A stretch of DNA of 64,000 nucleotides from an uncultured delta proteobacterium (GCA_963728565.1 CAVSLC010000025.1:125492-189491), one strand, 5' to 3'. Counted from the first letter of the stretch, positions 40,161 to 64,000 are shown. Numbers and translations are program-made. Notes: generated from the letters alone by a model not told the origin.

Positions 40161-40877
40161 TCACTTCGCGTCATGGAAAATGATCCCCAAGGTGTATCGC
40201 TGCCCGGAATGAATCGTGCTGACGCCGTGACGAAGGTTGGCGCGGTAGTAGCCGCGCGCCCCTTTAACAGGTCGATAATGAACTGCAAAGATTACCGCGT
40301 CGCCCTGCTCGGGAGAGAGCACTTCCACCCGAGATTGCCGGCGCGGCTGCTGTTCGGCAAGCACGAATTCACCGCCGGTGAAGTCGGATCCGCGCCGGCT
40401 CAAGAAAAAGGTGAGTTGAAACGGAAACACATTGTCACCGTAAAGATCCTGGTGCAGGCAGTTGAAATCACCGGCGCCATATTTCAGCAGCAATGGCGTT
40501 GGACGGTTTTGGCCCGCGCGATGACACTGTTCAAGATAGTCCGCGAGCGTTTCAGGATAAAGAGGCAATTTACTTCCAAGCCGGCCGCCCCATCGATTGG
40601 CAAGCGCGGCGAGATGCGGATAAATGGAAGACCTGAGTTGTTGAACGATAGACGGTAGCGGATAGTTGAAATATTTATATTCGCCCTGGCCGAAAAAATA
40701 ACGGGACATCTCGATTCGCGAGCGGAACCGATGATCATCAATGTAGTAGCGGACGATCTCTCGACAGTTTTTCTGCGTGAGCACGCCGGGGAGCACCGCA
40801 AAGCCACGTTCGTCGAGAGCAGCGCATGCCCGCTCCCAATCGATTTTCTTTTCTCCAGTTGCCGCTGGGGCGGTCAT
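40161..40877 (-). CDS. 2OG-Fe(II) oxygenase (DUF2086 / Oxygenase-NA type, typically linked to alkylation-repair genes)
   Basis: FRSRIEMSRY.FGQGEYKYF, RPTPLLLKY, LHQDLYG (HxD), LRHGVS, RYTLGIIFHDA. Confidence 0.88.
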   Translation of the reverse strand: MTAPAATGEKKIDWERACAALDERGFAVLPGVLTQKNCREIVRYYIDDHRFRSRIEMSRYFFGQGEYKYFNYPLPSIVQQLRSSIYPHLAALANRWGGRLGSKLPLYPETLADYLEQCHRAGQNRPTPLLLKYGAGDFNCLHQDLYGDNVFPFQLTFFLSRRGSDFTGGEFVLAEQQPRRQSRVEVLSPEQGDAVIFAVHYRPVKGARGYYRANLRHGVSTIHSGQRYTLGIIFHDAK

Positions 40878-40888
40878 GAATATTCTTC

Positions 40889-41389
40889 CTAGAAGCGCGC
40901 GGAAAAGCTCGGGCATCTTTCATGAGCCAAGAGCTTCGCCTTGACTTCGACCCCGCCGGCAAAGCCGGTCAGTGCTCCATTCGAGCCGATGACGCGATGA
41001 CACGGCACGATGATCGACAACGGATTCTTGCCATTGGCGGCGCCGACTGCGCGGACGGCCTTGGCAGATCCGATGCTCTTAGCTAGATCCAGATAGCTCC
41101 TGGTTTGACCGAACGGAATTTCTCGCAACGCCCGCCAGACCTTCTTCTGAAATTCGGTCCCAACGGGCTCAAGCGGAAGATGGAACTCGTTTCTCGTGCC
41201 GGCGAAATATTGTTGTAGCTGCCGCTCAGTCTCTACCAGGATCGGCTGTTGCGGATTGCACTTGAGCGTCGCGAGCTTGATCCGGTTGGGTCGTTCCCGC
41301 TCCCACAATATTGCGACGAGAGCATCGGCGTTTGCCACCAGCTTGAGTTTGCCCACCGGTGATTCCATGTCTTTATAGGACAGCATCAT
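40889..41389 (-). CDS. ogt: methylated-DNA--protein-cysteine methyltransferase
   Basis: SPVGKL, GTEFQKKVW, IPFGQTRSY, RAVGAANGKNP, active-site PCHRV. Confidence 0.95.
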   Translation of the reverse strand: MMLSYKDMESPVGKLKLVANADALVAILWERERPNRIKLATLKCNPQQPILVETERQLQQYFAGTRNEFHLPLEPVGTEFQKKVWRALREIPFGQTRSYLDLAKSIGSAKAVRAVGAANGKNPLSIIVPCHRVIGSNGALTGFAGGVEVKAKLLAHERCPSFSARF

Positions 41390-42250
41390 GCTTGTTTCTT
41401 TCTCTTCCTGGAGAGCGTTTGGGCAAATTCCTTCCACAGATAAACCGCCGCATACGATCCCCAAGGCTTGATCCGTTCTAAATCCAAATCGGAATGAAGA
41501 TCGAGAACTCTTTTGAGAATTAAATCCGTGTTGGGAAACGCGTCGGTATCACCGTTTCGAAGTCTGATATATTCAGCCGACCACGGGCCGAGCCCTCTGG
41601 TTTCGAGAAGCGCCTCGCGAAACGCGGCGGGATCCTGATCTTCGGCGAGAGAAATGGCCCGGCTCAGCACGCGCCGGCTGAAATCTCGGATGGCCTCTCG
41701 CCTAGCGCTGGTCGTTCCGATCGCGCTTAGATCTGAGCTAGCCAGGACTCCGGCAGCGGGAAACAAGTATGCTCTTTTCGATGTCGAGGGATCGACTACC
41801 TCCTCGCCGTAGTTGCTTACCAGTTGAGCGATCAGACGTTCTCTGTGCCCGGCAGAAACGAGTTGCCCCAAGATCGTACATATGGCGGTTTCGAAGCAGT
41901 CCCAGCCGCGAGCCACTCTGAGACCGGGAAAGCGGCGGCATAGGGCCGCCAGCAGTGGAATGCGCTCGAAGCTCTTCGCAATCAGCACCGGATCGCAATC
42001 CAAGTCGAACATTTTTCGAACCCGGCGCGCCGTTTCAGATATTGTTTTGGGATCTTCAGACACGATCCAGACTTTCAGCTGCGATTTGGCGAGAACGCGG
42101 GCGAACCTCGACGAAGCCGACTTTATTTCCTATCCGAAACACGCGCGCAAAGGAATCGCCCGTGACCCGTTCGACTCCCGGGATGGAGTGTGACTGAAAG
42201 TATTGGATGATCGCCTGCCAATCGTAGGGCGTTTTGAATGGCAAGTTCAT
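41386..42250 (-). CDS. alkA: DNA-3-methyladenine glycosylase II (AlkA), one frameshift near 42090
   Basis: AlkA_N (PYDW...IPGVE) in ORF 42056..42268 joins MFDLD, FETAICTILGQ.VS, HhH motif GLGPWSA and DAFP..D in ORF 41386..42063. Confidence 0.88.
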
Positions 42251-42341
42251 CTTGACGCTGTTGCTCAAACGGCCCGGCGTTTCTATGGATTTACGCTCTC
42301 ATCCGAAGTTCGTTAGTGCCCCTGCAAAATTATTCATCAAA

Positions 42342-43160
42342 CTACTTGTCGGGCCGGCAAATCTTGCATGGGCGTAACCCCGCCTGCCGGGCAGCTTTCT
42401 GATCGGCGAAGAAAAGCATTCGTCCACGACCCATCCGCGCCACAGCGCGGCAGCTGGCTCGACAGAAAATCTGGGTTGTCCTGTGTCCCCAAACCACGTT
42501 GTCGGGAACTTTTACAGCGCCATCACCGAGCGCAAAACCTTCGCTGCGCAGCAACTGGCGTTTACGCCCAGGGCCGCCACCGTATCCACCGATTCGTCCG
42601 TCTGATGCAATCACCCGATGGCATGGAACGTAAATCGGCACGGGATTGTTGTGCAGCGCATTGCCGACCGCCCGCGCGCTACTTGCGGAACCGATAGCAG
42701 CCCCCAATCCTTGATAGCTGATCAGCGCTCCGCGCGGGACCGCTTCGAGCTTGTCCAGGACCTTCTTCTGGAACGGATTACCGACAAGAGTCAGATCAAC
42801 ATGATGACGCAGAGCATTGGCCGCACCAGTGAGATAGCGGTCAACCTCCTCGCCGACTGCCGTGACAACCGGTCGATCCTCAACCGGATCGAACTGCAAT
42901 CGCAGCTTTGAAAGGGCCGCCGCGACATCGCTACTTTGCTCGATGTAATGATTAAGCACAATACCGCTGGCACTCAGGGCTACCAGCAGATCGCCCAATT
43001 TTGATTTCACAAGACCGACCGCCGCTTGTGGTCTGCGAACCCGTTCTAGCGCCTTGTCGAGCTTAGCAGAAGAGCGAAGCAACAATTCTTGGATGACTTC
43101 TTCCGGGCTGTCGATCGCGGCTGATCCAATGAGAGTTTCGATTTTCATGACTTTCACCAT
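42342..43160 (-). CDS. Ogt-type methyltransferase fused to a C-terminal Ada Zn-binding domain
   Basis: FQKKVL, ARAVGNAL..NP, PCHRV; the C-terminus TTQIFCRASC...AGLRPCKICRP matches the four-Cys metal-binding motif of the E. coli Ada N-domain; no AraC HTH. Confidence 0.9.
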   Translation of the reverse strand: MVKVMKIETLIGSAAIDSPEEVIQELLLRSSAKLDKALERVRRPQAAVGLVKSKLGDLLVALSASGIVLNHYIEQSSDVAAALSKLRLQFDPVEDRPVVTAVGEEVDRYLTGAANALRHHVDLTLVGNPFQKKVLDKLEAVPRGALISYQGLGAAIGSASSARAVGNALHNNPVPIYVPCHRVIASDGRIGGYGGGPGRKRQLLRSEGFALGDGAVKVPDNVVWGHRTTQIFCRASCRAVARMGRGRMLFFADQKAARQAGLRPCKICRPDK

Positions 43161-43672
43161 CTTTTCTTGAGCTTTCCGATAGCCTGGGAAACATTTGCTC
43201 GCGCGCTTTCTTCCGAACAGTCAATGGCATTGGCTATTTCCGGATAGTTAAGTCCGGCGAAGTAGCGCAAATGCAGCGCCTGTTGCTGCTTCGCCGGCAG
43301 ATCAGCGATTAGTTCGCGCAAATGAACCGCGGCATAGCCTTCAGTCCCATGATCTACTCGATGGTCCTTTGCGATCAAGTCCGCTGCGGCTACCGCCTTC
43401 TCATCCGGTACGAGCACCCGGGCGCGGCGCGCGGAATCACGCGCGCGGTTGCGCCATAGGTTGCTCGCAATCGTGTACAACCACGGACGCACGCCGTCCC
43501 GGGCATCGAGTCTGGGATAGGCGCGGTAGGCGCGCAACCAGGTTTCCTGGAACAGGTCTGCGGCATCTTCGGGATTGCTCGACAGACGCAGCAGGTAGCG
43601 CATGATTTCGCGCTGATGGCGCTGCATGATTTCTTCAAAAGGCAGCGGTAAGGGCAGCTTAGGTTGCGCCAT
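43154..43672 (-). CDS. ECF-type RNA polymerase sigma-70 factor
   Basis: DAADLFQETWLRAY, WLYTIASN (region 2); LPAKQQQAL.LRYF.GLNYPEIA (region 4); its stop overlaps the start of the next gene. Confidence 0.93.
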   Translation of the reverse strand: MAQPKLPLPLPFEEIMQRHQREIMRYLLRLSSNPEDAADLFQETWLRAYRAYPRLDARDGVRPWLYTIASNLWRNRARDSARRARVLVPDEKAVAAADLIAKDHRVDHGTEGYAAVHLRELIADLPAKQQQALHLRYFAGLNYPEIANAIDCSEESARANVSQAIGKLKKRW

Positions 43673-44075
43673 ATCTCTTAAAACACCACAGAAGAACGAA
43701 TGTGAAAAGTCCCGGCGTTCTATCAACCTTTGCCAGGTCTCCGCCGGTCCTTTCGACGAGATCAGGAATGATCAGGAATGAGCTTGTTCAAGCGGACTCA
43801 CGAACGGCAGGCAGGTGGTTTCGTGGATAGTTAAATTTTTAAACATGCTGATTTCTTCAGGTGCGAGCAGCAGCGGCTGAAATGCGCAAGATAAATATTC
43901 AGACGAGATCAGACTACATGAGCCGGAAGGAAAGCTTCTGGATGGGGGGAAGGCGAAAGTTTAGATGAAACGAGAACGGAGTAATTTGCTAAACCGGGTT
44001 CGTGCAGCAGCGTTTCGCCGTGTATTTATCCATTGGATCATTTTACCAGAGTTGAAACGGCAGGACACCGTGGGG

Positions 44076-54819: not shown

Positions 54820-55947
54820 TCATCCGGTCAGTGGAACAAATTCAAGCAAAATGGAAAATGCGATCAGAAGAATGATCACCCACTCAAGAATTTCCAGACG
54901 GCGAGTCGCCGCTTGATCGGCGATTTTTTCGTAGATGCTTTCGAGCGTTTGCAGCTTACGAATGATGCTCGAGTCCCATTCAGCCAGATGAAATCTCCGA
55001 TTGACCAGCCGGTAGACGCGCGCCAGATACTGATCGCCGAGAAGCTTGAGCGTGTTGTTGACGCCTTCGAACAACAACGCATTGTCGACTTGAAGCTCGG
55101 CTACACGGCGCAAATCAGTGCTGTAATAGCCGAGAAATCGTGGCAAGCTCCATGACCGCTTCGATAGCGTTTCGTAAGCTTCAAACAACGCGCGGTCGAG
55201 TTTCTGATCGAGGTAGCGCATTTCCAATAACTCGACATTGGCAAACTCCAAAACCGCCTGAACGTCGTCGCCTTCGCGATCGAGGAGCAGCGCGGCGTTC
55301 CAGTCGATAATGGTTAAATCGTCGGCGCCATAAGAAGTCCGGACGCTCAGCGCGTCCTGGACTTCCTGGAAGGAAAGACTCTGCCGTTCGGCGCGCAGGA
55401 TTCTTGCAATGTCGCGCTCGTGGCTCGCGCAAAAAGCCTCTGGACTCGCGGGCGGGTCCAGAGCAGCGATGCGAAAAATGACGTAATCTTCGACAACACT
55501 AACGGTATGCACGTTTACCGCGGCGTCACCCACAGCGCTGACGATCTGTTCCACCCGCAGGCGGGATTCGGTAAGCAGAATCTCGTTGTCGTAAAGATCT
55601 TCGCTGAGCGCCAGCAAAGCCGCAAATGGCCCCTGAATCGGAATACTATAGATCACCGAGACGGCGCCGAAGTCGTAGAGAACCAGGTCCACCATTCGAT
55701 GGCTTTTATATTCGCCGATGTTGATCGGCTGGATCTCCTGACTTAATCTCAGCGGTGGCGGTTGGTATTCAAGATAGCTGGGAGCGCGGCGTTTGTGCTG
55801 AATCGTCTGGCGCTGGGTCGCTTCGTGGATGCGGCGTTCGGCGGCGTCAAGGTCGATGGAGCGCGCCGCATCATAGGCGAAGAGCACATAGCAGACGCCT
55901 GTTTGAAGTACTGGATCGCTGCCTGCCGCGCCGGAGTCGGAGCCCAT
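54820..55947 (-). CDS. conserved hypothetical protein, RMD1/DUF155-like, C-terminal TM helix
   Basis: LYDFGAVS, LEFANVELLEMRYLD, GDQYLARVY, LEILEWVIILLIAF. Confidence 0.7.
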   Translation of the reverse strand: MGSDSGAAGSDPVLQTGVCYVLFAYDAARSIDLDAAERRIHEATQRQTIQHKRRAPSYLEYQPPPLRLSQEIQPINIGEYKSHRMVDLVLYDFGAVSVIYSIPIQGPFAALLALSEDLYDNEILLTESRLRVEQIVSAVGDAAVNVHTVSVVEDYVIFRIAALDPPASPEAFCASHERDIARILRAERQSLSFQEVQDALSVRTSYGADDLTIIDWNAALLLDREGDDVQAVLEFANVELLEMRYLDQKLDRALFEAYETLSKRSWSLPRFLGYYSTDLRRVAELQVDNALLFEGVNNTLKLLGDQYLARVYRLVNRRFHLAEWDSSIIRKLQTLESIYEKIADQAATRRLEILEWVIILLIAFSILLEFVPLTG

Positions 55948-57021: not shown

Positions 57022-59124
57022 TCAATAATCCAGATCGGTGACGTCTCGCCGTAGATCGCTGCCAAAGATGTTTTTCAAGGTCGGCCTGATCACGTCGAGG
57101 TCATTATCGAAGCAGCCGTGACTGCTCTTGATGTAGCGGCTGCCGACGTTGACCTGCGATGCTGACAGAACATGAAGGTTGCCGCTTGGTTTAGCTTTGC
57201 CGTCGGCAGCGAATCCTTTGGGGACCGAACCGCCCCAGAAGAACTTCTGCCACTGCTTGACCTGGCCCAGGGTATCGCTATGCCAATATTCTTCCGTGAC
57301 CCGGGCGCCGTCGAATGCGTTGGCCATGCCGAGCACCGGAGTTTTGTGCCATCGATCAAGCGCGCGACTTACCAGATAGAGCAAGGATTTTTGGTACGGA
57401 CCGACGCTGTCGTCACATTCCAGCTGGTCTGATAAAACGTGGATGCGAAACTCGGATCGGGCGAGTTGATGGTCTTCAACAGCCGGTTTGAAGTGATCCA
57501 GCGCGAACTTGAGGTCGCAGGCCGGAGCGTAAAGCGTGCAGGATTTTACTTTGATATTCTTTTGCCGGAGCTCGGATAACAACCGGCCGCAAATAAACGA
57601 TCCCGCCGAGTGGCCGACGAGATGAACCTGCAACTTGCCGCCGGAATCTGCGGCCAATCGTTTCAGCTGTTGCGCGAGCTGGTCGATGCCGCGTCCGGCC
57701 TCGATGGAACGACTCACATTCTCTTTCATTTCGGACCAGATGCTCTTGCCGACCACGCCGCGTAGAAATACTTCCAACGCGCGGTCGGAGGCTTCCACCA
57801 GCATGTCTCCCAATCCGCGCCGAGGCACGATCTGATCGCCAAATAAATTCTTCATGCCGTCGGCCAACATACTCCCAAACGTTTCATGCCAGCCGCTCTT
57901 CCAAGTCGTGAATACGGGAAAGATGCCGTTTTCACGGAAGCAGGGTCCCAGCAGACGGATCCGCTCTATCGAATCGCCTTCAGAGTTGAGACCGCCGTGA
58001 GCGTAAATAGCGATGCGCCAGGGGGCATTGCGCGCGTTGGCTTTGAACCATTTCAAAGGCTGCTCATAGCTGACCCAGTCGACATTGCCCTTTTCATCGG
58101 CGACATGCGGCAGGCGGTTGACGACGTGGCCGTCGTTTCCGGTGACGATGGTGTGCCAATAGGCTTCCTGCTCAGACCAGCACATCTGCGACGATTGGCG
58201 CCGGCCGAGAGCCGGGCCAATCAAGCCGGAACTCGTCGGGGTTGATGAAAGACCGGCGCTACTTCTGACGAAGTATTGTCGCTGGCGCAGATTCTGAACC
58301 GGCGCGCCCAGTGACATAACCCAGGCATCCGTCCCGTTGGCTATCCAGTCATCATAAGGAAGAACTGCGAAGCCGGAAGCGCCCCATCTCCCGCCCCAAG
58401 AGTTCTGCACGATAAACCCGATGTCGTTGTAACCGACCAGAGCGAAAGCGTGGCCGCCCAGTCCTTTGTTACTGGCATCGATCACCGGCAGCGTCTTGTG
58501 CGTTGCCGCGCCTTGTTTCGCTTTGACGTCCCAACCTTCATGCACGTTGGCCGACACGTAGACTGCCCCGGTGTCGTAGATCGCGGCTTGAATATCGACC
58601 ACCGATTGACGGTCGACCCGATAGTAGACCCCCAGCGGGCGCCCAATCGCATCGGTGTCCCATCCCTCCGTCGGGGGAATGAAACGAGCTCCATTTTCAT
58701 CTCTGTAGGGCCAAAGAATGTCGGTGCAGACGCCGTGGCGGTGCCAACCTTTGAGCGCTCCCCGGCAGCTCGATCCTTCATAACCCTCCCCAGGCCATTC
58801 ATCGTAGAAACGCGCTAGGTGATAAAGCATTCGCGGACTAACCTTGTCCTTACTTCTAAGCTTCAGGCCCGATCTGCGCCACAACAAATAGTTGATCACT
58901 GCCGCCAAACCAAATCCGGTGCAGGCGCCTTCTGATTCTTGATCGAGAACGAGACCGGCGGCGAGATAGCGCGGCAAAAGCTTGGAAATATCCTTTTCCC
59001 CTGGATAAATCGGCGCCAGGCAAACCACCGATGGGCGATAGGGTAAGTCGCGCAGGTCAAGACGATCCGGCCGCGCATCCAGTGTAATCGGCCGGCCGGC
59101 AATCTCGATGGTCTTTGTCGGCAT
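57022..59124 (-). CDS. C1 (papain-like) cysteine peptidase fused to an alpha/beta-hydrolase domain
   Basis: DQESEGACTGF (Gln/Cys), GGHAFALVGY (His), QNSWG (Asn); C-terminal YAHGGLN, VGHSAGS nucleophile elbow, SHGCFDND; no signal peptide. Confidence 0.88.
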   Translation of the reverse strand: MPTKTIEIAGRPITLDARPDRLDLRDLPYRPSVVCLAPIYPGEKDISKLLPRYLAAGLVLDQESEGACTGFGLAAVINYLLWRRSGLKLRSKDKVSPRMLYHLARFYDEWPGEGYEGSSCRGALKGWHRHGVCTDILWPYRDENGARFIPPTEGWDTDAIGRPLGVYYRVDRQSVVDIQAAIYDTGAVYVSANVHEGWDVKAKQGAATHKTLPVIDASNKGLGGHAFALVGYNDIGFIVQNSWGGRWGASGFAVLPYDDWIANGTDAWVMSLGAPVQNLRQRQYFVRSSAGLSSTPTSSGLIGPALGRRQSSQMCWSEQEAYWHTIVTGNDGHVVNRLPHVADEKGNVDWVSYEQPLKWFKANARNAPWRIAIYAHGGLNSEGDSIERIRLLGPCFRENGIFPVFTTWKSGWHETFGSMLADGMKNLFGDQIVPRRGLGDMLVEASDRALEVFLRGVVGKSIWSEMKENVSRSIEAGRGIDQLAQQLKRLAADSGGKLQVHLVGHSAGSFICGRLLSELRQKNIKVKSCTLYAPACDLKFALDHFKPAVEDHQLARSEFRIHVLSDQLECDDSVGPYQKSLLYLVSRALDRWHKTPVLGMANAFDGARVTEEYWHSDTLGQVKQWQKFFWGGSVPKGFAADGKAKPSGNLHVLSASQVNVGSRYIKSSHGCFDNDLDVIRPTLKNIFGSDLRRDVTDLDY

Positions 59125-59214
59125 CTTTAAATCCTTCCGTCGAGCACAATTGACTAATGGTTTATTAAAATTCCAATTACAGGCTACTCAAAAAACCTCT
59201 AGGCGACACCGAAA

Positions 59215-59278
59215 CTCGTGCTCGTGTCCGTGAAAACGTGATCGAGAATCCTGGAACGAACACGAAAACACGAACACC
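59215..59278. repeat. imperfect CGTG/CACG hexamer-repeat palindrome
   Basis: CTCGTGCTCGTGTCCGTG..ACGTG ... ACGAACACGAAAACACGAACAC. Confidence 0.45.
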
Positions 59279-59348
59279 AATGTGCCATGCGATTGAGTGA
59301 ACCCTTCGACGATCTATGGCAATCGGCATCCGAGTGTTGCCAGCAGCT

Positions 59349-60164
59349 CTACGCCAATGCCTTCCATGCCTTCATGCGCGAAGTGCCATAAAGATTGGGA
59401 GACTGCGGATATTGCTGTGAAGGAAGTGTTTTGCGAATCGCCTGATACCATTGCTTGTAGCTCGCCTTGGGCGAGAGACCGGAGAGCGCACGGATTGCGA
59501 CGAATGTGAAGGCGCCATTGGGACGTCCCTGAAAGGAAGCGTCATAGCTGTATTCGGTATCCTGGCAGCCGGCCATCAGGAGCGCCGCGTAACGTCCTGG
59601 AGGAGCGGAACTGCGTATGCCGCGGCCGATGCCGAGTTTGCTTATGTCGCGTTTCGATAAGAAAGTTGCCGGCGGCAAGAAGCGCACCTTGCGAGTGGGC
59701 GCGCCCCTGCCTTTAATCGTCGGCGGGGTAGTGATGGGCGCGAACTTCGCGACCGTTCCCGAATGGCAGGAATCTGAAATGACCAGGAGCTTAACGCCGG
59801 TCTGTTTGCTGCTATAGAGCTCGAAGAGCTCGTCATCGGTAATCGGACCTTTGGAATTGATGTCATAGGGGCAGATACATTCGTCGGTGCCATCCGGCTC
59901 ATCGCCGTTTTCATCCGGCACATACGAGCCGTGTCCGGAGTATTGAATGATGACGGTATCGCCGCTTCTTGCCCCGCCGATGGTCGACTCGATGGCGCTT
60001 CGAATATTTTTGCCGGTTGCCTTCTTATCGATGATCTGCAAAACGGCAAATCCCCTCTTCTCAAGCAGGGCACTCCAGTCCCGAACATCGTTGACGCAGC
60101 CGGCCAGATCGCTGCCGGTTCCTGGATAATCATTAATGCCAATGCACAATGCGTATTTCGCCAT
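59349..60164 (-). CDS. caspase family (peptidase C14, metacaspase) protease
   Basis: ALCIGINDY, LAGCVND, YSGHG (His), SDSCHSG (Cys), p10-like AGCQDTEYSYD...GAFT...QSP; GGAGG RBS. Confidence 0.93.
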   Translation of the reverse strand: MAKYALCIGINDYPGTGSDLAGCVNDVRDWSALLEKRGFAVLQIIDKKATGKNIRSAIESTIGGARSGDTVIIQYSGHGSYVPDENGDEPDGTDECICPYDINSKGPITDDELFELYSSKQTGVKLLVISDSCHSGTVAKFAPITTPPTIKGRGAPTRKVRFLPPATFLSKRDISKLGIGRGIRSSAPPGRYAALLMAGCQDTEYSYDASFQGRPNGAFTFVAIRALSGLSPKASYKQWYQAIRKTLPSQQYPQSPNLYGTSRMKAWKALA

Positions 60165-60378
60165 GAATGCCTCCATTGAATTTTTGGCCGTATGTTAATA
60201 TCGAAAGTAAATTTCGTCTATGAAAAATATTCGATCGACAAGACCGCGATGAGGAAAAAACTTTCTGCACCGGAAAAGTGATAGTCATTATTGCGCGTTG
60301 TTCGTCTCGAGGTTCGGGTCGAGGCCTTATTGAACGTCATACAGTTCGCTGATGCCTTGAGGCGGTGATATCCGATCC

Positions 60379-60406
60379 TTGACAGGTTTGTCGTCCATGT
60401 TAACTT
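60379..60406 (+). promoter_or_regulatory. sigma70-type promoter for the tctC-like gene
   Basis: TTGACA-N16-TAACTT with an extended -10 TGn. Confidence 0.45.
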
Positions 60407-60429
60407 ACACCGTCATCATTTTAGTTCCG

Positions 60430-60577
60430 CAGGCTGCTGAAAAAGACCCATATGCTTCGTTGCGCTCAATCGCCTCGCTGCAACGTACTGTAAGTACGCC
60501 TTAGCTCGTCGATTTCTCGTGCGCCTCGCCTCTGGATCTTTTTGAGCAGCCTGCAATCAGATTTTTTCAGCAACCTG
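60430..60577. mobile_element. MITE-like TIR repeat element, copy 4, flanked by a direct repeat
   Basis: CAGGCTGCTGAAAAAG...CTTTTTGAGCAGCCTG...TTTTTTCAGCAACCTG; TTAGTTCCG lies on both sides (60421-60429 and 60578-60586). Confidence 0.85.
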
Positions 60578-60603
60578 TTAGTTCCGCTTCAGGAGGACCT
60601 GCG

Positions 60604-61659
60604 ATGAATCGTTTCAAGAGTTCGGTTTTGACATTCTTGGCTGGCGCCTTGCTGGCCGGTTTGTTATCGGCTGCTCCAGCATTGGCGCAGAGCGATTTTT
60701 ATAAAGGCAAAACCATCACCGTTTACATCGGCACCACCGCGGGAGCGCTTTACGACCAGTGGGGACGCATTCTCGCAACCCATATGGTCAAGCACATTCC
60801 CGGCAACCCGAACGTGATCGTGCAGAATATGCCTGGCGCCGGCCATATGATCGCGGCGAACTATGTTTATAAGACAACCAAGCCGGATGGCTTGAGCTTG
60901 ATCGGTTCGATTGTGCCGACGTTGTATTTCGACCAACTGGTCGGGCGCAAGGAAGCGCAATACGATTGGGCCAAATTTGTTTGGATCGGTTCCCCGGTGC
61001 AGGGAGAGTTGCAGATGTATATGCGCGCCGACACTCCCTACAAAACGATGGATGACGTGCGCAACGCCAAGGAACCGCCACGCTGCGGAGCGCAGGGAAC
61101 ATCGGACACGGCCTACTACGTGCCGAAGCTGTTTGAGGAAGTGATCGGCACGAAGTTCAACCTGGTGCAGGGTTACCCCGGCGGGCCGGAAATCGACCTG
61201 GCGGTGGAGAGAGGCGAAATCCAGTGCCGCGCTTTTACCATCGAGGCGTTTTTCTCGCGCGAGCCCTATCATACCTGGCGCAAGAAGGGGTTTGTTCGCA
61301 ACATTATCCAAACCGGCAAGAAGCGCGATAGCAAGCTGCCCGATACCGAAACCATCTGGGAGCTCATGGACAAGTATAAAACGCCGGAAGCAGGCCGGCG
61401 TCTCGCCACTGTGATGTTGGCCTCCGGCGCCCTGGGCCGGCCGATGCTGGCCACGCCCGGCGTTCCGCCGGACCGCGTCAAAATTTTGCGCGAGGCTTTC
61501 AACAAGACCATGGAGGATAAGGAATTTCTAGCCGAGTTGGAAAAGCGAAAGTTCGAGCTCGATCCATCACCGGGCGAAGAGCTGGAAAAGATCGTCAAAG
61601 ACGCGATGAATCAGCCGCCTGAAATCGTCGCGCGAATCAAAAAGTTACTGGGCCAGTAG
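60604..61659 (+). CDS. tripartite tricarboxylate transporter substrate-binding protein (TctC/Bug family)
   Basis: DFYKGKTI, HIPGNP.VIVQNMPGAG, GYPGG.EIDLAVERGE, PGVPPDRV; AGGAGG RBS. Confidence 0.9.
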   Translation: MNRFKSSVLTFLAGALLAGLLSAAPALAQSDFYKGKTITVYIGTTAGALYDQWGRILATHMVKHIPGNPNVIVQNMPGAGHMIAANYVYKTTKPDGLSLIGSIVPTLYFDQLVGRKEAQYDWAKFVWIGSPVQGELQMYMRADTPYKTMDDVRNAKEPPRCGAQGTSDTAYYVPKLFEEVIGTKFNLVQGYPGGPEIDLAVERGEIQCRAFTIEAFFSREPYHTWRKKGFVRNIIQTGKKRDSKLPDTETIWELMDKYKTPEAGRRLATVMLASGALGRPMLATPGVPPDRVKILREAFNKTMEDKEFLAELEKRKFELDPSPGEELEKIVKDAMNQPPEIVARIKKLLGQ

Positions 61660-61675
61660 ACAAACGATAGATTCG

Positions 61676-61715
61676 AAAAAAGCCGCCTTGCGAAAAATGC
61701 AAGGCGGCTTTTTTT
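61676..61715. terminator. bidirectional intrinsic terminator
   Basis: AAAAAAGCCGCCTTGC-gaaaaat-GCAAGGCGGCTTTTTTT between convergent genes. Confidence 0.9.
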
Positions 61716-61730
61716 GCGTTCGCGCCAGGG

Positions 61731-62729
61731 TCAGCGGTAGAGCCCGTCGATGTATCCGGATTTATCCAGCTCTTCGAGAAAGCTCGTGTCAACGAATTCT
61801 TTTGCATTTGCCGTCCTGGCGGCCGGCAGCCGATCGCTGACATCTTTGAAGATGGTCTTGAACGATTCCAGGTTGGGATAGGGTTTGGGTTTAACGATTT
61901 CTAGCAAGGTCTGATAGGCCTCTTCCAGCTGCTTCTCGTCTTTGGTCTTGCGGTATTTGACAAATGCCCGCTTGGCCAGTTCCGGGTTGGTTTTCACGAT
62001 ATGAATTGTGTCCACATAGCTTTTCACCATGCGTCTGACGATGTCGCGATTCTTCGCAATGTAACGCTGCGATGCCACCAATCCGGTGCCTTGATAATAA
62101 ATGTTCAGCTCAGCCATGTTGAGCAGGACCCGCATGCCGGATTGAACTGCGGCGAGATGATCGGGGGGTGAAAAGCTCGATGCGTCCGCTGAGTTTCCCA
62201 CCATAGCGATGATCCGCGCCGGTGTGTCACCGATCTGCAAAAAGGTAATGTCTTTATCCGTCAAGCCGAAGCGCGGCAACATATTGAGCACGCGCATATG
62301 CGAAGCGGCGCCAAAACGGGAAACCGCGATGCGTTTGCCTTTGAGCTCTTCCGGCGTCTTGATGGTGGGCCGGACCACCAAGCGATCGTCAAGCAACTCT
62401 TGGATGCTGACCAGCATTACGACATCGCTTCCTTGCAGCCGGGCCGGTGACATGAGCGCGCCGGTCATCTGCCCGAAATTGAGCTCGCCGGATATCAGCG
62501 ATCCCATCGAGATGTTTCCCGGCATATAAATAATCTCAAGGTCCAGATTGTTTTTCTTAAACACTCCGGCGACATCACCGATCCAGAGAACACCGTGCTG
62601 TGGGCCTGGCGAAGTATAGGCGATGCGTATCCTGTCTGCGCCGAAAATCGATTGGCTGGCGAAAAATGAGCAGAGAAACGCCACCAGCGCAAGCAAGAGT
62701 GTGTCGATTTTGGCCAATGTAAAAATCAT
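61731..62729 (-). CDS. ABC substrate-binding protein (SsuA/NMT1-like)
   Basis: Signal peptide; GVFKKNNLD, ELKGKRIAVSRFGA, FVDTSFLEELDKSGYI; GGGAGG RBS. Confidence 0.9.
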   Translation of the reverse strand: MIFTLAKIDTLLLALVAFLCSFFASQSIFGADRIRIAYTSPGPQHGVLWIGDVAGVFKKNNLDLEIIYMPGNISMGSLISGELNFGQMTGALMSPARLQGSDVVMLVSIQELLDDRLVVRPTIKTPEELKGKRIAVSRFGAASHMRVLNMLPRFGLTDKDITFLQIGDTPARIIAMVGNSADASSFSPPDHLAAVQSGMRVLLNMAELNIYYQGTGLVASQRYIAKNRDIVRRMVKSYVDTIHIVKTNPELAKRAFVKYRKTKDEKQLEEAYQTLLEIVKPKPYPNLESFKTIFKDVSDRLPAARTANAKEFVDTSFLEELDKSGYIDGLYR

Positions 62730-62837
62730 CTCGCCTCCCGATCTCGCCGCGCCGATGCTCGAAGAATTATCGCGAGGGAGTGGCACGGTCAAGGAGTTAT
62801 TCTGGTCACAGCCGGTTGATTCGGTAGTGCTTCAGTT

Positions 62838-63812
62838 TTACTTCACTTTATACCCAAGCTCCTTTGCCACTTCCTTGGCCAGACTATCGTCAGCAACCTC
62901 TTCGAAGGATACGTTTCGGTCGGCAAAGCGTGCCTGTGATTTCACGGACCGAACCAGGTTGTTCATGCCTTCGCGCGCAGGCACCCCATCGATGCTCAGG
63001 CTGGTGAGATAAACATCGTAAGTCGAGGAGGCGATGTCGCGATCCATCTTCAGTGCACGAACCATGAGCTCGAGGGTTTTATCTTTTGATTTTCGGATTG
63101 CGTCCTTGGCCGTTTGCAGTGCGCGAATCACTTTTCTGACTTCATCCGGTTTGCTCGTAATGGTTTTGATCAAGGTCGTCAAACCGCCGCCTGGCATCTC
63201 TACTAACGAGCCGATATCCAGCACCCGATGAAACCCCTTTCGCTCAGCAAAAAACACCGTTGGTGGATTGAGCGAGGCAGCGTCGACAAATCCCGACTCC
63301 AAAGACCGGAGCAGCTCGGGCGTGGGCGTGGTCAGAATGATGAAATCCTTGGGGTTGAATCCCGCCTTTTCGAGAGCGACGACCAACGCAACGTGATTGG
63401 TCCCGCCTATGCCGCCGGTGATGCCGATTTTTTTTCCTTTTAGATCTTGAAGAGACTTGTTTTGCGGCGAAGTCGTTACGAAATAGGATATCCGATTGGA
63501 AGAAAACCACACCGCTCGCAGCGGCAGTCCCGCCAAAGTAGCTGCCACGGAACCGGGCCCGACGCCGGCGACATAGTCGATTTCGCTGGCCGCAATCGCC
63601 GGGTTCGAAATCGCGGGGTTCATCATGATGATCTCGGCCTGCAATCCCTGTTCACGAAAAAAGTTCCATTCGCGCGCGGCGACCAGCGGCAAAGCGGTTA
63701 CGCTCAGTGCGGAGTTGGAAATGCGTATTTTCGTCGGCGGTTCTTGGGCGAACGCGGTCCGATGGAAATCCACCGGTAATAAGATTCCGCTGAAGAAGAA
63801 AACTATGATCAA
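62838..63812 (-). CDS. ABC substrate-binding protein (SsuA/NMT1-like); start uncertain
   Basis: Signal-like IIVFFFSGILL..AFAQ; FFREQGL, DLKGKKIGI, DDSLAKEVAKEL. Confidence 0.85.
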   Translation of the reverse strand: MIIVFFFSGILLPVDFHRTAFAQEPPTKIRISNSALSVTALPLVAAREWNFFREQGLQAEIIMMNPAISNPAIAASEIDYVAGVGPGSVAATLAGLPLRAVWFSSNRISYFVTTSPQNKSLQDLKGKKIGITGGIGGTNHVALVVALEKAGFNPKDFIILTTPTPELLRSLESGFVDAASLNPPTVFFAERKGFHRVLDIGSLVEMPGGGLTTLIKTITSKPDEVRKVIRALQTAKDAIRKSKDKTLELMVRALKMDRDIASSTYDVYLTSLSIDGVPAREGMNNLVRSVKSQARFADRNVSFEEVADDSLAKEVAKELGYKVK

Positions 63813-63874
63813 GTTAGTGCTAACCCGACAATAGTTGAGCACCGTCAACAGTGAGCGAGGACGGCGAGACCGGA

Positions 63875-63983
63875 AACCGTGGGCACCCGAGCGCGCAGTT
63901 GGCTTCAAGGCCCGGACGTACGAAACATCACCCTTACGGGAACGTGGGGTGGCCTTCAAGGCAGTATCCGATTGCCCACGGCT
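63875..63983 (-). other. candidate structured RNA or palindromic element upstream of the SBP gene
   Basis: Closing stem CCGTGGGCA/TGCCCACGG; two GCCTTGAAG motifs and a CCC-GTAA-GGG hairpin on the minus strand. Confidence 0.35.
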
Positions 63984-64000
63984 GTAGGGCTCGGCGGCCT

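What the first reader, a model, noticed from the sequence alone, without database searches (positions are those of the whole stretch)
57022..60164. Metacaspase + papain-like protease/alpha-beta hydrolase fusion: candidate proteolytic cascade (defence or cell death)
Seen: two co-oriented genes without signal peptides carry three intact catalytic centres: C14 His/Cys (SGHG, DSCHSG), C1 Gln/Cys/His/Asn, and a lipase-like GHSAG serine with a C-terminal His. The C1 and hydrolase domains are joined by a low-complexity, Arg-containing linker (NLRQRQYFVRSSAGLSSTPTSSGLIGPALGRRQSS). The pair sits among unrelated genes behind an AT-rich upstream region. Established: metacaspases typically cut after Arg/Lys; caspase-like proteases activate bacterial gasdermins; lipases are effectors in CBASS. 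Inference: caspase or C1 cleavage of the linker could release a membrane-damaging hydrolase, giving a two-gene conflict system. No sensor domain is visible, and the 224-bp gap weakens the operon case.
Basis: partly seen in the sequence, partly recalled or inferred. Interest (0 to 1): 0.72.

Follow-up and report, generated by a model that had tools for sequence, protein, structure and literature searches.

The report
Caspase next to protease–hydrolase fusion gene
A soil bacterium carries a small caspase-like protease gene beside a gene that fuses a papain-like protease to a lipase-like hydrolase; this caspase type and this hydrolase type turn up together repeatedly in other bacteria, so the pair probably works together, but how is untested.

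Summary
Both genes and all three catalytic centres are real and conserved. The 700-aa protein belongs to a large, uncharacterised family: a xylellain-type C1 peptidase, a disordered variable linker, and a Ser-Asp-His alpha/beta hydrolase.

That family mostly lives without any caspase. No C14 gene was found in 73 of 79 loci, and 4 of 5 isolate genomes have none at all. The linker has no conserved site. So caspase cleavage of the linker cannot be the family's general mechanism. The window is not a defence island, and PADLOC reports no system.

The pairing is still not random:
- The same hydrolase domain type is fused in one chain to a caspase domain in 7 of 121 longer proteins screened, four of them with a peptidoglycan amidase.
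- The caspase's nearest longer relatives are caspase-GDSL lipase fusions.
- Close caspase relatives sit near C1 peptidases in 6 of 75 non-redundant loci, in several gene orders.

Verdict: a lineage-restricted, split form of a recurrent caspase + hydrolase (+ wall-enzyme) combination. A functional link is likely; the mechanism is open. First reading: partly supported.

The parts
59349..60176 (-). Single-domain metacaspase/orthocaspase (275 aa; the likely true start is M5 at 60164)
   Evidence: Pfam Peptidase_C14 6.3e-29. H82 and C137 are invariant in 58 sequences. Full-length match to PDB 3bij, GSU0716, 1.5e-36.
59125..59348 (-). 224-bp intergenic gap. The roughly 70 nt next to the fusion's ATG are conserved; the distal part holds a palindromic dispersed repeat (about 59185-59280).
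   Evidence: The proximal 70 nt are conserved in 8 of 8 aligned relatives, including L004 and L091, whose distal gap differs. The repeat has 4 further partial copies in the genome, plus the C27 counterpart. The hairpin z-score is -1.55, not significant. The consensus scan lists no promoter-like or terminator-like site inside the gap.
58300..59082 (-). Xylellain-type papain-family (C1A) peptidase domain, residues about 15-275 of the fusion, including the invariant N-terminal LDARPDRLDLRD motif
   Evidence: Pfam Peptidase_C1 above its cut-off. Q62, C68, H225 and N241 are invariant. 3ois xylellain: 5.2e-19 by profile; Foldseek 5.7e-16, TM 0.70 on the target.
58162..58299 (-). Disordered, variable inter-domain linker (residues 276-321)
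   Evidence: pLDDT below 50 at residues 290-311. Length ranges from 32 to 57 residues, with no conserved column except at its end.
57025..58161 (-). Ser-Asp-His alpha/beta-hydrolase domain (residues 322-700) with an HGG oxyanion motif, a GHSAG nucleophile elbow and a helical lid-like insertion. It is DUF900-like but below the Pfam cut-off.
   Evidence: H376 G377 G378, S506, D572 and H669 are invariant. Model pLDDT 82.2. VIA Z 10-12 to many esterases and lipases. 1,753 representative clusters at E<=0.001.

Best explanation
The window holds a lineage-restricted, split version of an enzyme combination that recurs in bacteria: a GSU0716-like orthocaspase together with a DUF900-like serine hydrolase. 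Here the hydrolase is part of a widespread bifunctional protein, with a xylellain-type C1 peptidase in front of it. Elsewhere it is fused directly to a caspase, with or without a peptidoglycan amidase.

Shown:
- All three active sites are intact and conserved.
- The two domains of the fusion are predicted to pack together, joined by a disordered linker.
- The hydrolase domain type and the caspase domain co-occur by fusion and by neighbourhood far more often than the rarity of these genes would allow.
- The C1-hydrolase family as a whole does not depend on a caspase.

Inferred:
- In this lineage the two proteins act together in the cytoplasm as a degradative, lysis- or cell-death-type module. 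It would attack proteins (caspase, C1) and an ester-linked envelope component (hydrolase). Sister loci add a cytoplasmic peptidoglycan-binding, lysozyme-like enzyme between the two genes.
- The caspase is an add-on regulator or co-effector. For example, it could license the C1-hydrolase by limited cleavage at an exposed basic site, either in the linker or in the Arg-rich N-terminal segment. It is not the family's built-in activator.

The trigger is unknown; no sensor is encoded here.
For: Enzymes are real.

Domain fusions (Rosetta stones):
- The only longer homolog of the fusion at E<=1e-10 (1 among 5,377 candidates) is P0121. Its residues 816-1108 align to the hydrolase domain (29% identity, 4e-25), and it ends in Peptidase_C14.
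- Local profiles find hydrolase + C14 in 7 of 121 longer proteins (P0121, P0173, P0181, P0193, P0195, P0227, P0232). Hydrolase domain E-values run from 1e-25 to 1e-48. All 7 keep HGG and GHSAG. Four have an N-terminal Amidase_2.

Caspase side:
- 20 of 120 listed longer relatives are C14 + Lipase_GDSL_2 at 46-59% identity. Others carry PG_binding_1, Amidase_2, eCIS_core, or trypsin + nuclease.

Neighbourhoods:
- MCA then fusion in the window clade (L001-L004, L087-L091).
- MCA, PG_binding_1/GH19-like protein, fusion, with 50-137-nt gaps, in L005 and L006 (fusion 66%, MCA 72-73% identical), which are titled as different phyla.
- A full-length fusion (33% identity, 4e-98) upstream of a 70%-identical MCA in L124.
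- C1-only peptidases near the MCA in L123, L153, L155 and L157, and a hydrolase fragment in L122.
- In total, a C1-type gene occurs in 11 of 80 MCA loci, or 6 of 75 once the five same-species loci are dropped. For comparison, fusion-like genes occur in only 11 of 401 genomes of the phylum sample.

Context: TPR-S and pYEATS proteins, patatin, S41 and LysM-M15 genes lie in those arrays.

Precedent: an orthocaspase acting on a neighbour-encoded protein, MaOC1 (PMC7935541, abstract read).
Against: - Most fusions stand alone among housekeeping genes. Neither tblastn nor the profile finds C14 in 73 of 79 loci. Pfam on 132 nearest neighbours finds C14 only in the near-identical relatives.
- PF00656 is present in only 1 of 5 fusion-bearing isolate genomes, and there it lies about 0.7 Mb away.
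- In the phylum sample only G000, G052 and G255 have both genes. In G052 and G255 they are about 14 kb apart.
- In a tree of 69 fusions, adjacency maps to one small terminal clade plus one deep branch.
- Most close MCA relatives (69 of 80 loci) have no C1-type neighbour, and their contexts are very diverse.
- The 69%-identical MCAs of G258 and G199 pair instead with a C92 amidase and a pYEATS protein, in genomes with no fusion hit.
- None of the caspase-fused proteins carries a C1 domain. The caspase-fused hydrolases belong to a distant branch: 0 of the 150 best representatives have C14.
- No sensor, no PADLOC system, no defence island.
- A conserved stretch just upstream of the fusion suggests it has its own promoter.
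Confidence: 0.5

Rival explanations
1. The genes are independent. The C1-hydrolase is a stand-alone cytoplasmic bifunctional hydrolase, for example for peptide/ester or lipopeptide turnover. The small orthocaspase is a mobile accessory gene that happened to land beside it in one lineage, with no mechanistic coupling.
For: - 73 of 79 fusion loci lack C14, and their neighbours are housekeeping genes.
- 4 of 5 isolate genomes have no C14.
- MCA contexts are highly variable and include toxin-antitoxin and mobile genes: PemK, AbiEii, HEPN, a DDE transposase.
- A conserved upstream element and a repeat insertion separate the two genes.
- Adjacency maps to one terminal clade plus L124.
Against: - Hydrolase + C14 fusions in 7 of 121 longer proteins.
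- A C1-type gene in 6 of 75 non-redundant MCA loci, in several orders and orientations, although such genes are rare.
- The trio is conserved in L005 and L006 at 66-73% identity, across records titled as different phyla.
Confidence: 0.28
2. One reading: the caspase (or the C1 domain) cuts the Arg-containing linker and releases a membrane-damaging lipase, giving a two-gene abortive-infection system.
For: - The linker is disordered and contains Arg/Lys.
- Orthocaspases cut after basic residues (abstracts of PMC6426788 and 10.1101/2024.10.24.620036).
- The caspase-hydrolase link is supported by fusions.
- Release of effector domains by a cysteine protease domain is known for MARTX toxins (PMC11296635, abstract start in the search listing).
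Against: - No conserved linker site. There is no Arg/Lys enrichment in caspase-adjacent fusions, and L124's linker is short and Ala/Gly-rich.
- The two domains are predicted to pack tightly (pTM 0.87), so cutting the linker need not separate them.
- The family works without a caspase in most genomes.
- No sensor and no PADLOC system.
- Lipase specificity is unproven; only a generic alpha/beta-hydrolase fold is shown.
Confidence: 0.1
3. Both proteins are exported or injected antagonistic effectors that act on other cells by attacking the target's envelope and proteins, using a non-classical route.
For: - One caspase relative is fused to an eCIS_core domain plus PG_binding_1 (P0157).
- Partners include peptidoglycan amidases, lysozyme-like proteins and lipases.
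- A DUF900-type hydrolase, cinquedea, is reported as a secreted bactericidal phospholipase (bioRxiv 10.64898/2026.06.10.730825, passage read).
Against: - No signal peptide, secretion-system gene or immunity-like small gene is seen beside the pair.
- Most fusion loci have no secretion context.
- The DUF900 match of this protein is below the cut-off.
Confidence: 0.1

Closest known systems
Xylellain (Xylella fastidiosa C1A cysteine protease, PDB 3OIS) and 'xylellain-type short bacterial C1A peptidases'
   Same: It is the best sequence and fold match of the N-terminal domain (profile 5.2e-19 over residues 19-268; Foldseek 5.7e-16). The Gln-Cys-His-Asn centre is the same, and neither has a signal peptide. 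PMC10380794 (passages read) names this type and notes that intracellular prokaryotic C1A peptidases lack signal peptides.
   Different: Xylellain is a single-domain protein of about 290 aa. Here the domain is fused through a disordered linker to a 380-aa serine hydrolase. Identity is only about 24%.
GSU0716-like single-domain orthocaspases/metacaspases (PDB 3BIJ; MaOC1 of Microcystis)
   Same: Full-length similarity to 3bij (1.5e-36), with the His-Cys dyad. MaOC1 shows that an orthocaspase can act on the product of a neighbouring gene (PMC7935541, abstract read).
   Different: MaOC1's target is an antitoxin, not a hydrolase. No substrate is known here. GSU0716 has no published function that I saw.
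Type IV Thoeris (TIR + caspase-like protease) and other caspase-based bacterial immunity
   Same: A caspase-family protease acts as a cell-death-type effector in bacteria, and is Arg-specific and promiscuous (bioRxiv 10.1101/2024.10.24.620036, abstract and outline read).
   Different: No TIR or other sensor or signal-generating gene lies near the pair. The partner here is a C1-hydrolase.
MARTX-type multi-effector toxins (a cysteine protease domain releases effector domains)
   Same: Works-like analogy only: a cysteine protease cuts between domains to free effectors (PMC11296635 and PMC6315884, abstract starts in the search listing). That MARTX effector sets include an alpha/beta-hydrolase domain and a papain-like MCF domain is recalled, not read.
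   Different: MARTX toxins are giant secreted toxins of eukaryote-targeting pathogens, and their protease domain is activated by inositol hexakisphosphate. There is no sequence relationship, no repeats and no secretion signal here.
DUF900 (PF05990) alpha/beta hydrolases, including cinquedea
   Same: It is the nearest named family of the C-terminal domain (Pfam 0.0029). Atlas neighbours are stand-alone hydrolases, of which 15-19% carry DUF900. A true DUF900 gene lies two genes from the fusion on a Sinorhizobium fredii plasmid.
   Different: The score of 17.6 bits is below the 20.5 cut-off, so this protein is not filed as a member. DUF900's function is given as unknown in PMC11878206 (passage read).
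Comparative-genomics 'conflict systems' with caspase, lysozyme and papain-like peptidoglycan-peptidase effectors (Kaur et al. 2020, PMC7159879)
   Same: The theme is arrays of peptidase and wall-degrading effector domains. pYEATS is called a ligand-binding domain of conflict contexts in bioRxiv 10.64898/2026.10.19.760177 (passage read).
   Different: Those systems are built around NTPases (STAND, vWA-MoxR and others) and adaptor domains. None is present in the window. The passages I read do not mention a C1A-hydrolase fusion.

Membership tests
Peptidase C14 (metacaspase/orthocaspase) | Caspase/p20 domain scoring over the curated cut-off | tested here: met
   PF00656 101.7 bits against a cut-off of 21.4
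Peptidase C14 (metacaspase/orthocaspase) | Catalytic His-Cys dyad | tested here: met
   H82 (SGHG) and C137 (DSCHSG) are invariant in 58 sequences
Peptidase C14 (metacaspase/orthocaspase) | Cleavage after Arg/Lys | not testable with these tools
   Inferred from family knowledge only (abstract of PMC6426788)
Peptidase C1A, xylellain type | Gln-Cys-His-Asn catalytic centre with papain spacing (Gln six residues before Cys) | tested here: met
   Q62, C68, H225 and N241 are invariant in 102 sequences
Peptidase C1A, xylellain type | Papain fold closest to xylellain | tested here: met
   3ois: Foldseek 5.7e-16, TM 0.70 on the target; profile 5.2e-19
Peptidase C1A, xylellain type | N-terminal pro-segment that blocks the active site (zymogen) | not tested
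   Model coordinates are not exposed to scripts
Alpha/beta-hydrolase superfamily (serine hydrolase) | Alpha/beta-hydrolase fold with a GxSxG nucleophile elbow, an acid and a His | tested here: met
   VIA Z 12.2/11.3/11.1 to hydrolases; S506, D572 and H669 invariant
DUF900 (PF05990) | Score over the Pfam gathering cut-off | tested here: not met
   17.6 bits against a cut-off of 20.5
   Only borderline Foldseek rows to lipases, DDHD domains and cutinases (E about 1e-3); no specific family stands out
Known anti-phage defence system (PADLOC-DB 2.0) | Component models matching both genes, or a system nearby | tested here: not met
   Fusion: 0 families. MCA: only a partial 'caspase' model, positions 1-157 of 453. 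Among 30 neighbouring ORFs, only generic helicase and 2OG hits.
Type IV Thoeris / CBASS / gasdermin-type systems | Adjacent TIR, cyclase or gasdermin partner | tested here: not met
   No such Pfam domain in the ORFs of 36-64 kb
Operon (co-transcribed pair) | A transcript spanning both genes | tested here: inconclusive
   Same strand, 224-bp gap, and no scan hit inside the gap. A conserved proximal element and a REP-like repeat lie in it. Metatranscriptome contigs cover both genes, but none bridges the gap.

The most novel reading that the evidence does not exclude
The pair, together with the trio in its sister loci (caspase, cytoplasmic peptidoglycan-binding lysozyme-like enzyme, C1-hydrolase) and the single-chain Amidase_2-hydrolase-caspase proteins, represents an undescribed holin-independent autolysis or abortive-infection device. 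A peptidoglycan-recognising module senses or attacks the wall, the caspase gates the response, and the serine hydrolase breaches an ester-linked envelope component from inside.
Probability: 0.15. Interest if true: 0.8.

Novelty: new variant of a known kind. Interest (0 to 1): 0.5.

Why it matters
Bacterial caspase homologs are widespread, but very few have a known partner or substrate. This analysis links one compact orthocaspase clade, by gene fusion and by neighbourhood, to a large uncharacterised serine-hydrolase domain family (1,753 representative clusters) and to cell-wall enzymes.

That gives a concrete, testable pairing: which protein cuts which, and what the hydrolase's substrate is. 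It also flags the roughly 700-aa C1-hydrolase fusion, annotated only as 'C1 family peptidase', as a widespread bifunctional enzyme of unknown role.

None of the listings from my literature searches showed a paper describing this pairing. Subscription journals and supplements were not searched.

Tried and rejected
- Complex prediction of the fusion with the caspase (collected): 'no answer', score 0.00. This is evidence neither way.
- Metatranscriptome contigs from four runs: short pieces at 90-99% identity lie on both genes and none bridges the gap. Contigs cannot show transcript ends, and DNA carry-over is possible, so this is inconclusive.
- Promoter/terminator consensus scan: 0 promoter-like sites in 56.5-60.7 kb, and no terminator-like site inside the gap. 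Uninformative for this organism.
- Gap hairpin: z = -1.55, not significant.
- A remnant of the PG_binding gene in the window's gap: none found.
- C92 and pYEATS probes against the 80 MCA loci by tblastn: 0 hits. Pfam later found one pYEATS protein, in L124.
- A second copy of the pair on contig C27: this is a 94%-identical syntenic strain-variant contig end, not independent evidence.
- Phage carriage: one distant hit each in uncultured jumbo-phage records, so a phage lysis-cassette origin is not supported.
- Foldseek on the hydrolase domain: no hit at E<=0.001.
- NCBIfam: nothing informative.
- Earlier scan notes, searched by sequence: none.
Full report
**What is there.** On the minus strand, a 275-aa ORF (59349..60176) is followed after 224 bp by a 700-aa ORF (57022..59124). 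The first is a single-domain Peptidase_C14 (6.3e-29). Its His82 and Cys137 are invariant in 58 relatives, and its whole length matches the uncharacterised Geobacter protein GSU0716 (PDB 3bij, 1.5e-36).

The second ORF has a Peptidase_C1 domain above the Pfam cut-off. It also has several alpha/beta-hydrolase hits, all below their cut-offs. In alignments of 26 and 102 homologs these residues are invariant: the C1 centre Q62/C68/H225/N241, the HGG oxyanion motif (376-378), S506 in GHSAG, D572 and H669.

An AlphaFold model from the 102-sequence alignment is confident (pLDDT 87.5, pTM 0.87), with a disordered stretch at residues 290-311. The C1 domain is closest to xylellain (3ois: profile 5.2e-19; Foldseek 5.7e-16). 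Modelled alone (pLDDT 82.2), the C-terminal domain is a generic alpha/beta-hydrolase fold. VIA-align gives Z 12.2, rmsd 4.2 and 210 aligned residues to 9bld, followed by a flat list of esterases, lipases and thioesterases. Foldseek gives nothing at E<=0.001. 'Lipase' remains an inference.

**The fusion is a big family that mostly has no caspase.** The word-index search found 4,167 proteins at E<=0.001 among 8,000 scored candidates. Most are about 700 aa, and sources name them 'C1 family peptidase' or 'hypothetical'. Seventy-nine genome loci were fetched, from Binatia, Burkholderiales, Steroidobacteraceae, Desulfobulbales, Acidobacteriota, Verrucomicrobiota and others.

- A caspase homolog lies within the fetched flanks in 6 of 79 loci by tblastn, and in the same 6 of 79 with a profile built from 58 caspases.
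- Four of those six are 91-98% identical to the window protein.
- Pfam on the 132 nearest flanking ORFs shows mostly housekeeping genes (inositol monophosphatase, BacA, metallo-beta-lactamase, flagellin, transporters). C14 appears only in the near-identical relatives.
- Five isolate genomes with the fusion were searched for PF00656. Only 1 of 5 has any, and there it is about 0.7 Mb from the fusion.
- In 401 genomes of the window's phylum, 11 have a fusion-like gene and 39 an MCA-like gene. Only G000, G052 and G255 have both, and in the latter two the genes are about 14 kb apart.
- In a tree of 69 full-length fusions, caspase adjacency maps to one small terminal clade plus one deep lone branch, L124.

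The fusion family therefore does not need a caspase.

**The linker carries no sign of a dedicated cleavage site.** Across the 69 sequences, no linker column is conserved at 60% or more except at its C-terminal end. Length varies from 32 to 57 residues. Caspase-adjacent fusions have 0.097 Arg/Lys per residue against 0.118 for the others. L124's linker is Ala/Gly-rich, with two basic residues. Any exposed basic residue could still be cut by a promiscuous Arg/Lys protease, but nothing singles the linker out.

**Yet the pairing is not random.** Three lines of evidence point to a real link.

1. *Neighbourhoods seen from the caspase side.* Eighty metagenome loci with relatives of the caspase were fetched.
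   - A C1-type gene lies in 11 of 80: five same-species loci (L087-L091) and six others.
   - L124 has a full-length fusion homolog (33% identity, 4e-98) upstream of a 70%-identical caspase, which is the reverse gene order.
   - L123 has a C1-only peptidase and a PG_binding_1/SLT-like protein divergent from the caspase.
   - L153, L155 and L157 have C1-only peptidases downstream, in arrays that also hold an S41 peptidase, an amidohydrolase, LysM-Peptidase_M15_4 or patatin, and a TPR-S protein.
   - L122 has a hydrolase fragment at its contig end.
   - In L005 and L006 (fusion 66% identical, caspase 72-73%; titled Limnocylindrales and Binatia) a PG_binding_1 + GH19-like protein sits between the two genes, with gaps of 50-137 nt.

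2. *Domain fusions.*
   - The only 'longer' homolog of the fusion at E<=1e-10 (1 among 5,377 candidates) is P0121 (1,413 aa). Its residues 816-1108 align to the hydrolase domain and keep the YAHGGL, GHSAGS, APAC, SLLYLVSRA and SHGxF motifs. It ends in Peptidase_C14.
   - Screening the 121 longer proteins with my own profiles found this hydrolase type and C14 in one chain in 7 of 121. The hydrolase E-values run from 1e-25 to 1e-48. All seven have HGG and GHSAG.
   - Four of them start with Amidase_2, a peptidoglycan amidase domain, and one carries DUF7379.

3. *The caspase's own fused relatives.* Its closest longer relatives (46-59% identity) are C14 + GDSL-lipase/esterase fusions, 20 of 120 listed rows. 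Others carry PG_binding_1, Amidase_2, eCIS_core, trypsin + endonuclease, or subtilase domains. None carries a C1 domain.

The conserved association is thus caspase with a serine esterase/lipase-type domain and wall-directed modules. The C1 peptidase is a frequent but not constant extra.

**Limits of that link.**
- 69 of 80 caspase loci show no C1-type gene. Nearest neighbours of the other loci are very diverse (77 ORFs scanned). Some are housekeeping (AhpC, catalase, DNA glycosylase). Others are accessory or conflict-type genes (PemK, AbiEii, HEPN, GIY-YIG, GH108, a cytolysin-like protein).
- The 69%-identical caspases of G258 and G199 are followed instead by a C92 permuted-papain amidase and a pYEATS protein, in genomes where no fusion was found at E<=1e-20.
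- The caspase-fused hydrolases are a distant branch. Among the 150 best of 1,753 representative clusters, 80 are C1 + hydrolase, 70 are hydrolase alone or with a short N-terminus, and none has C14.

**Local context and transcription.** The window around the pair encodes housekeeping functions: a GNAT; TctC and NMT1-type binding proteins; phosphoglucomutase; Ada/AlkA/2OG repair genes; an ECF sigma factor; a DEAD-box helicase. PADLOC gives nothing for the fusion, only a partial 'caspase' model for the MCA, and only generic helicase and 2OG hits among 30 neighbouring ORFs.

Three things are known about the 224-bp gap:
- It contains a palindromic element that recurs at four other places in the genome, plus the C27 counterpart. 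Its fold is not significant (z = -1.55).
- The 70 nt before the fusion's ATG are conserved even in relatives whose distal gap is different. This suggests an own promoter or 5' UTR.
- Contigs from four soil metatranscriptome runs lie on both genes, but none bridges the gap.

Whether the genes are co-transcribed is therefore open. The genes are not phage-borne, with one distant hit each. Fusions do occur on large, mostly non-mobilizable rhizobial and Burkholderiales replicons. On one of these (Sinorhizobium fredii) a CHAP-like + PG_binding_1 protein and a true DUF900 hydrolase lie beside the fusion.

**Reading.** The best-supported account is that this is a lineage-restricted, split form of a recurrent caspase + serine hydrolase (+ wall enzyme or peptidase) combination. 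A functional link between the two genes is likely.

I infer a cytoplasmic degradative, lysis- or cell-death-type role, in which the caspase is an accessory regulator or co-effector. This rests on three things: the absence of evident signal peptides, the wall- and lipid-directed partners, and the TPR-S and pYEATS proteins in related arrays. pYEATS is described as a ligand-binding domain of conflict contexts (bioRxiv 10.64898/2026.10.19.760177, passages read).

Precedents are MaOC1 cutting a neighbour-encoded antitoxin (PMC7935541, abstract read) and the TIR-activated caspase-like protease of type IV Thoeris (bioRxiv 10.1101/2024.10.24.620036, abstract read). It resembles effector release by the MARTX protease domain only by analogy (PMC11296635, listing). 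The main rival is that the two genes are functionally independent.

**Novelty.** None of the seven literature searches listed a paper on a C14 plus C1-hydrolase pair or on Amidase_2-hydrolase-C14 proteins. DUF900 is given as 'function unknown' in PMC11878206 (passage read). One DUF900-type hydrolase, cinquedea, is reported as a secreted bactericidal phospholipase (bioRxiv 10.64898/2026.06.10.730825, passage read). Subscription journals and supplements were not covered. I rate this a new variant of a known kind, namely caspase-associated effector modules.

Noticed in passing
G000 contig C27 34249-35346 (locus L082 4370-9347) versus window 59067-64000: Contig C27 ends in a 94%-identical syntenic copy of the window's right end (NMT1 genes, TctC, caspase, and the first 19 codons of the fusion). 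It is most likely a strain-variant contig binned into the same MAG (contamination 5.84%), not a true duplication.
   Followed up: partly
window 59185-59280 (core 59215-59249): A palindromic TTCGTG/CACGAA-rich element in the gap has partial copies at C27:24290, C25:86410, C10:245240 and C14:15351 (82-90% identity). Its 35-nt core is hit by many unrelated soil metatranscriptome contigs with loose ends on both sides. It looks like a REP-like dispersed repeat.
   Followed up: partly
L083 6046-8848 and L084 4496-7301 (genomes G258, G199): A tight trio: a 69%-identical caspase, a 342-aa Peptidase_C92 (YaeF/YiiX-like permuted papain amidase, borderline score), and a roughly 318-aa protein with an N-terminal membrane helix and a C-terminal prokaryotic YEATS domain.
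   Followed up: partly
L153 150-10402; L157 526-5584: Co-oriented arrays of degradative enzymes around a 45-46%-identical caspase: amidohydrolase, S41 peptidase, caspase, then LysM-Peptidase_M15_4 or patatin, a TPR-S 'sensor' protein, and a stand-alone xylellain-type C1 peptidase.
   Followed up: partly
proteins P0173, P0181, P0195, P0232 (907-999 aa): Single-chain Amidase_2 (peptidoglycan amidase) - serine hydrolase of the fusion's type - Peptidase_C14 proteins. P0193 has DUF7379 in place of the amidase. Their genomic context could not be looked up.
   Followed up: partly
L168 (Sinorhizobium fredii plasmid pSfreNXT3a) 1838-7722: A 30%-identical fusion has, as its divergent neighbour, a 576-aa CHAP-like + PG_binding_1 protein. 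A true DUF900 hydrolase (2e-14) lies two genes further on.
   Followed up: partly
window 54820-55947 (-): A 375-aa ORF without any Pfam, NCBIfam or PADLOC match. It is conserved at 96% in L002 and has a hydrophobic C-terminal stretch. It lies on the same strand as the pair but is separated from it by a convergent GNAT gene.
   Followed up: no
window 40161-43726 (-): A cluster of alkylation-repair genes (2OG oxygenase PF09859, an AlkA N-terminal domain, Ada/MGMT) next to an ECF sigma factor.
   Followed up: no
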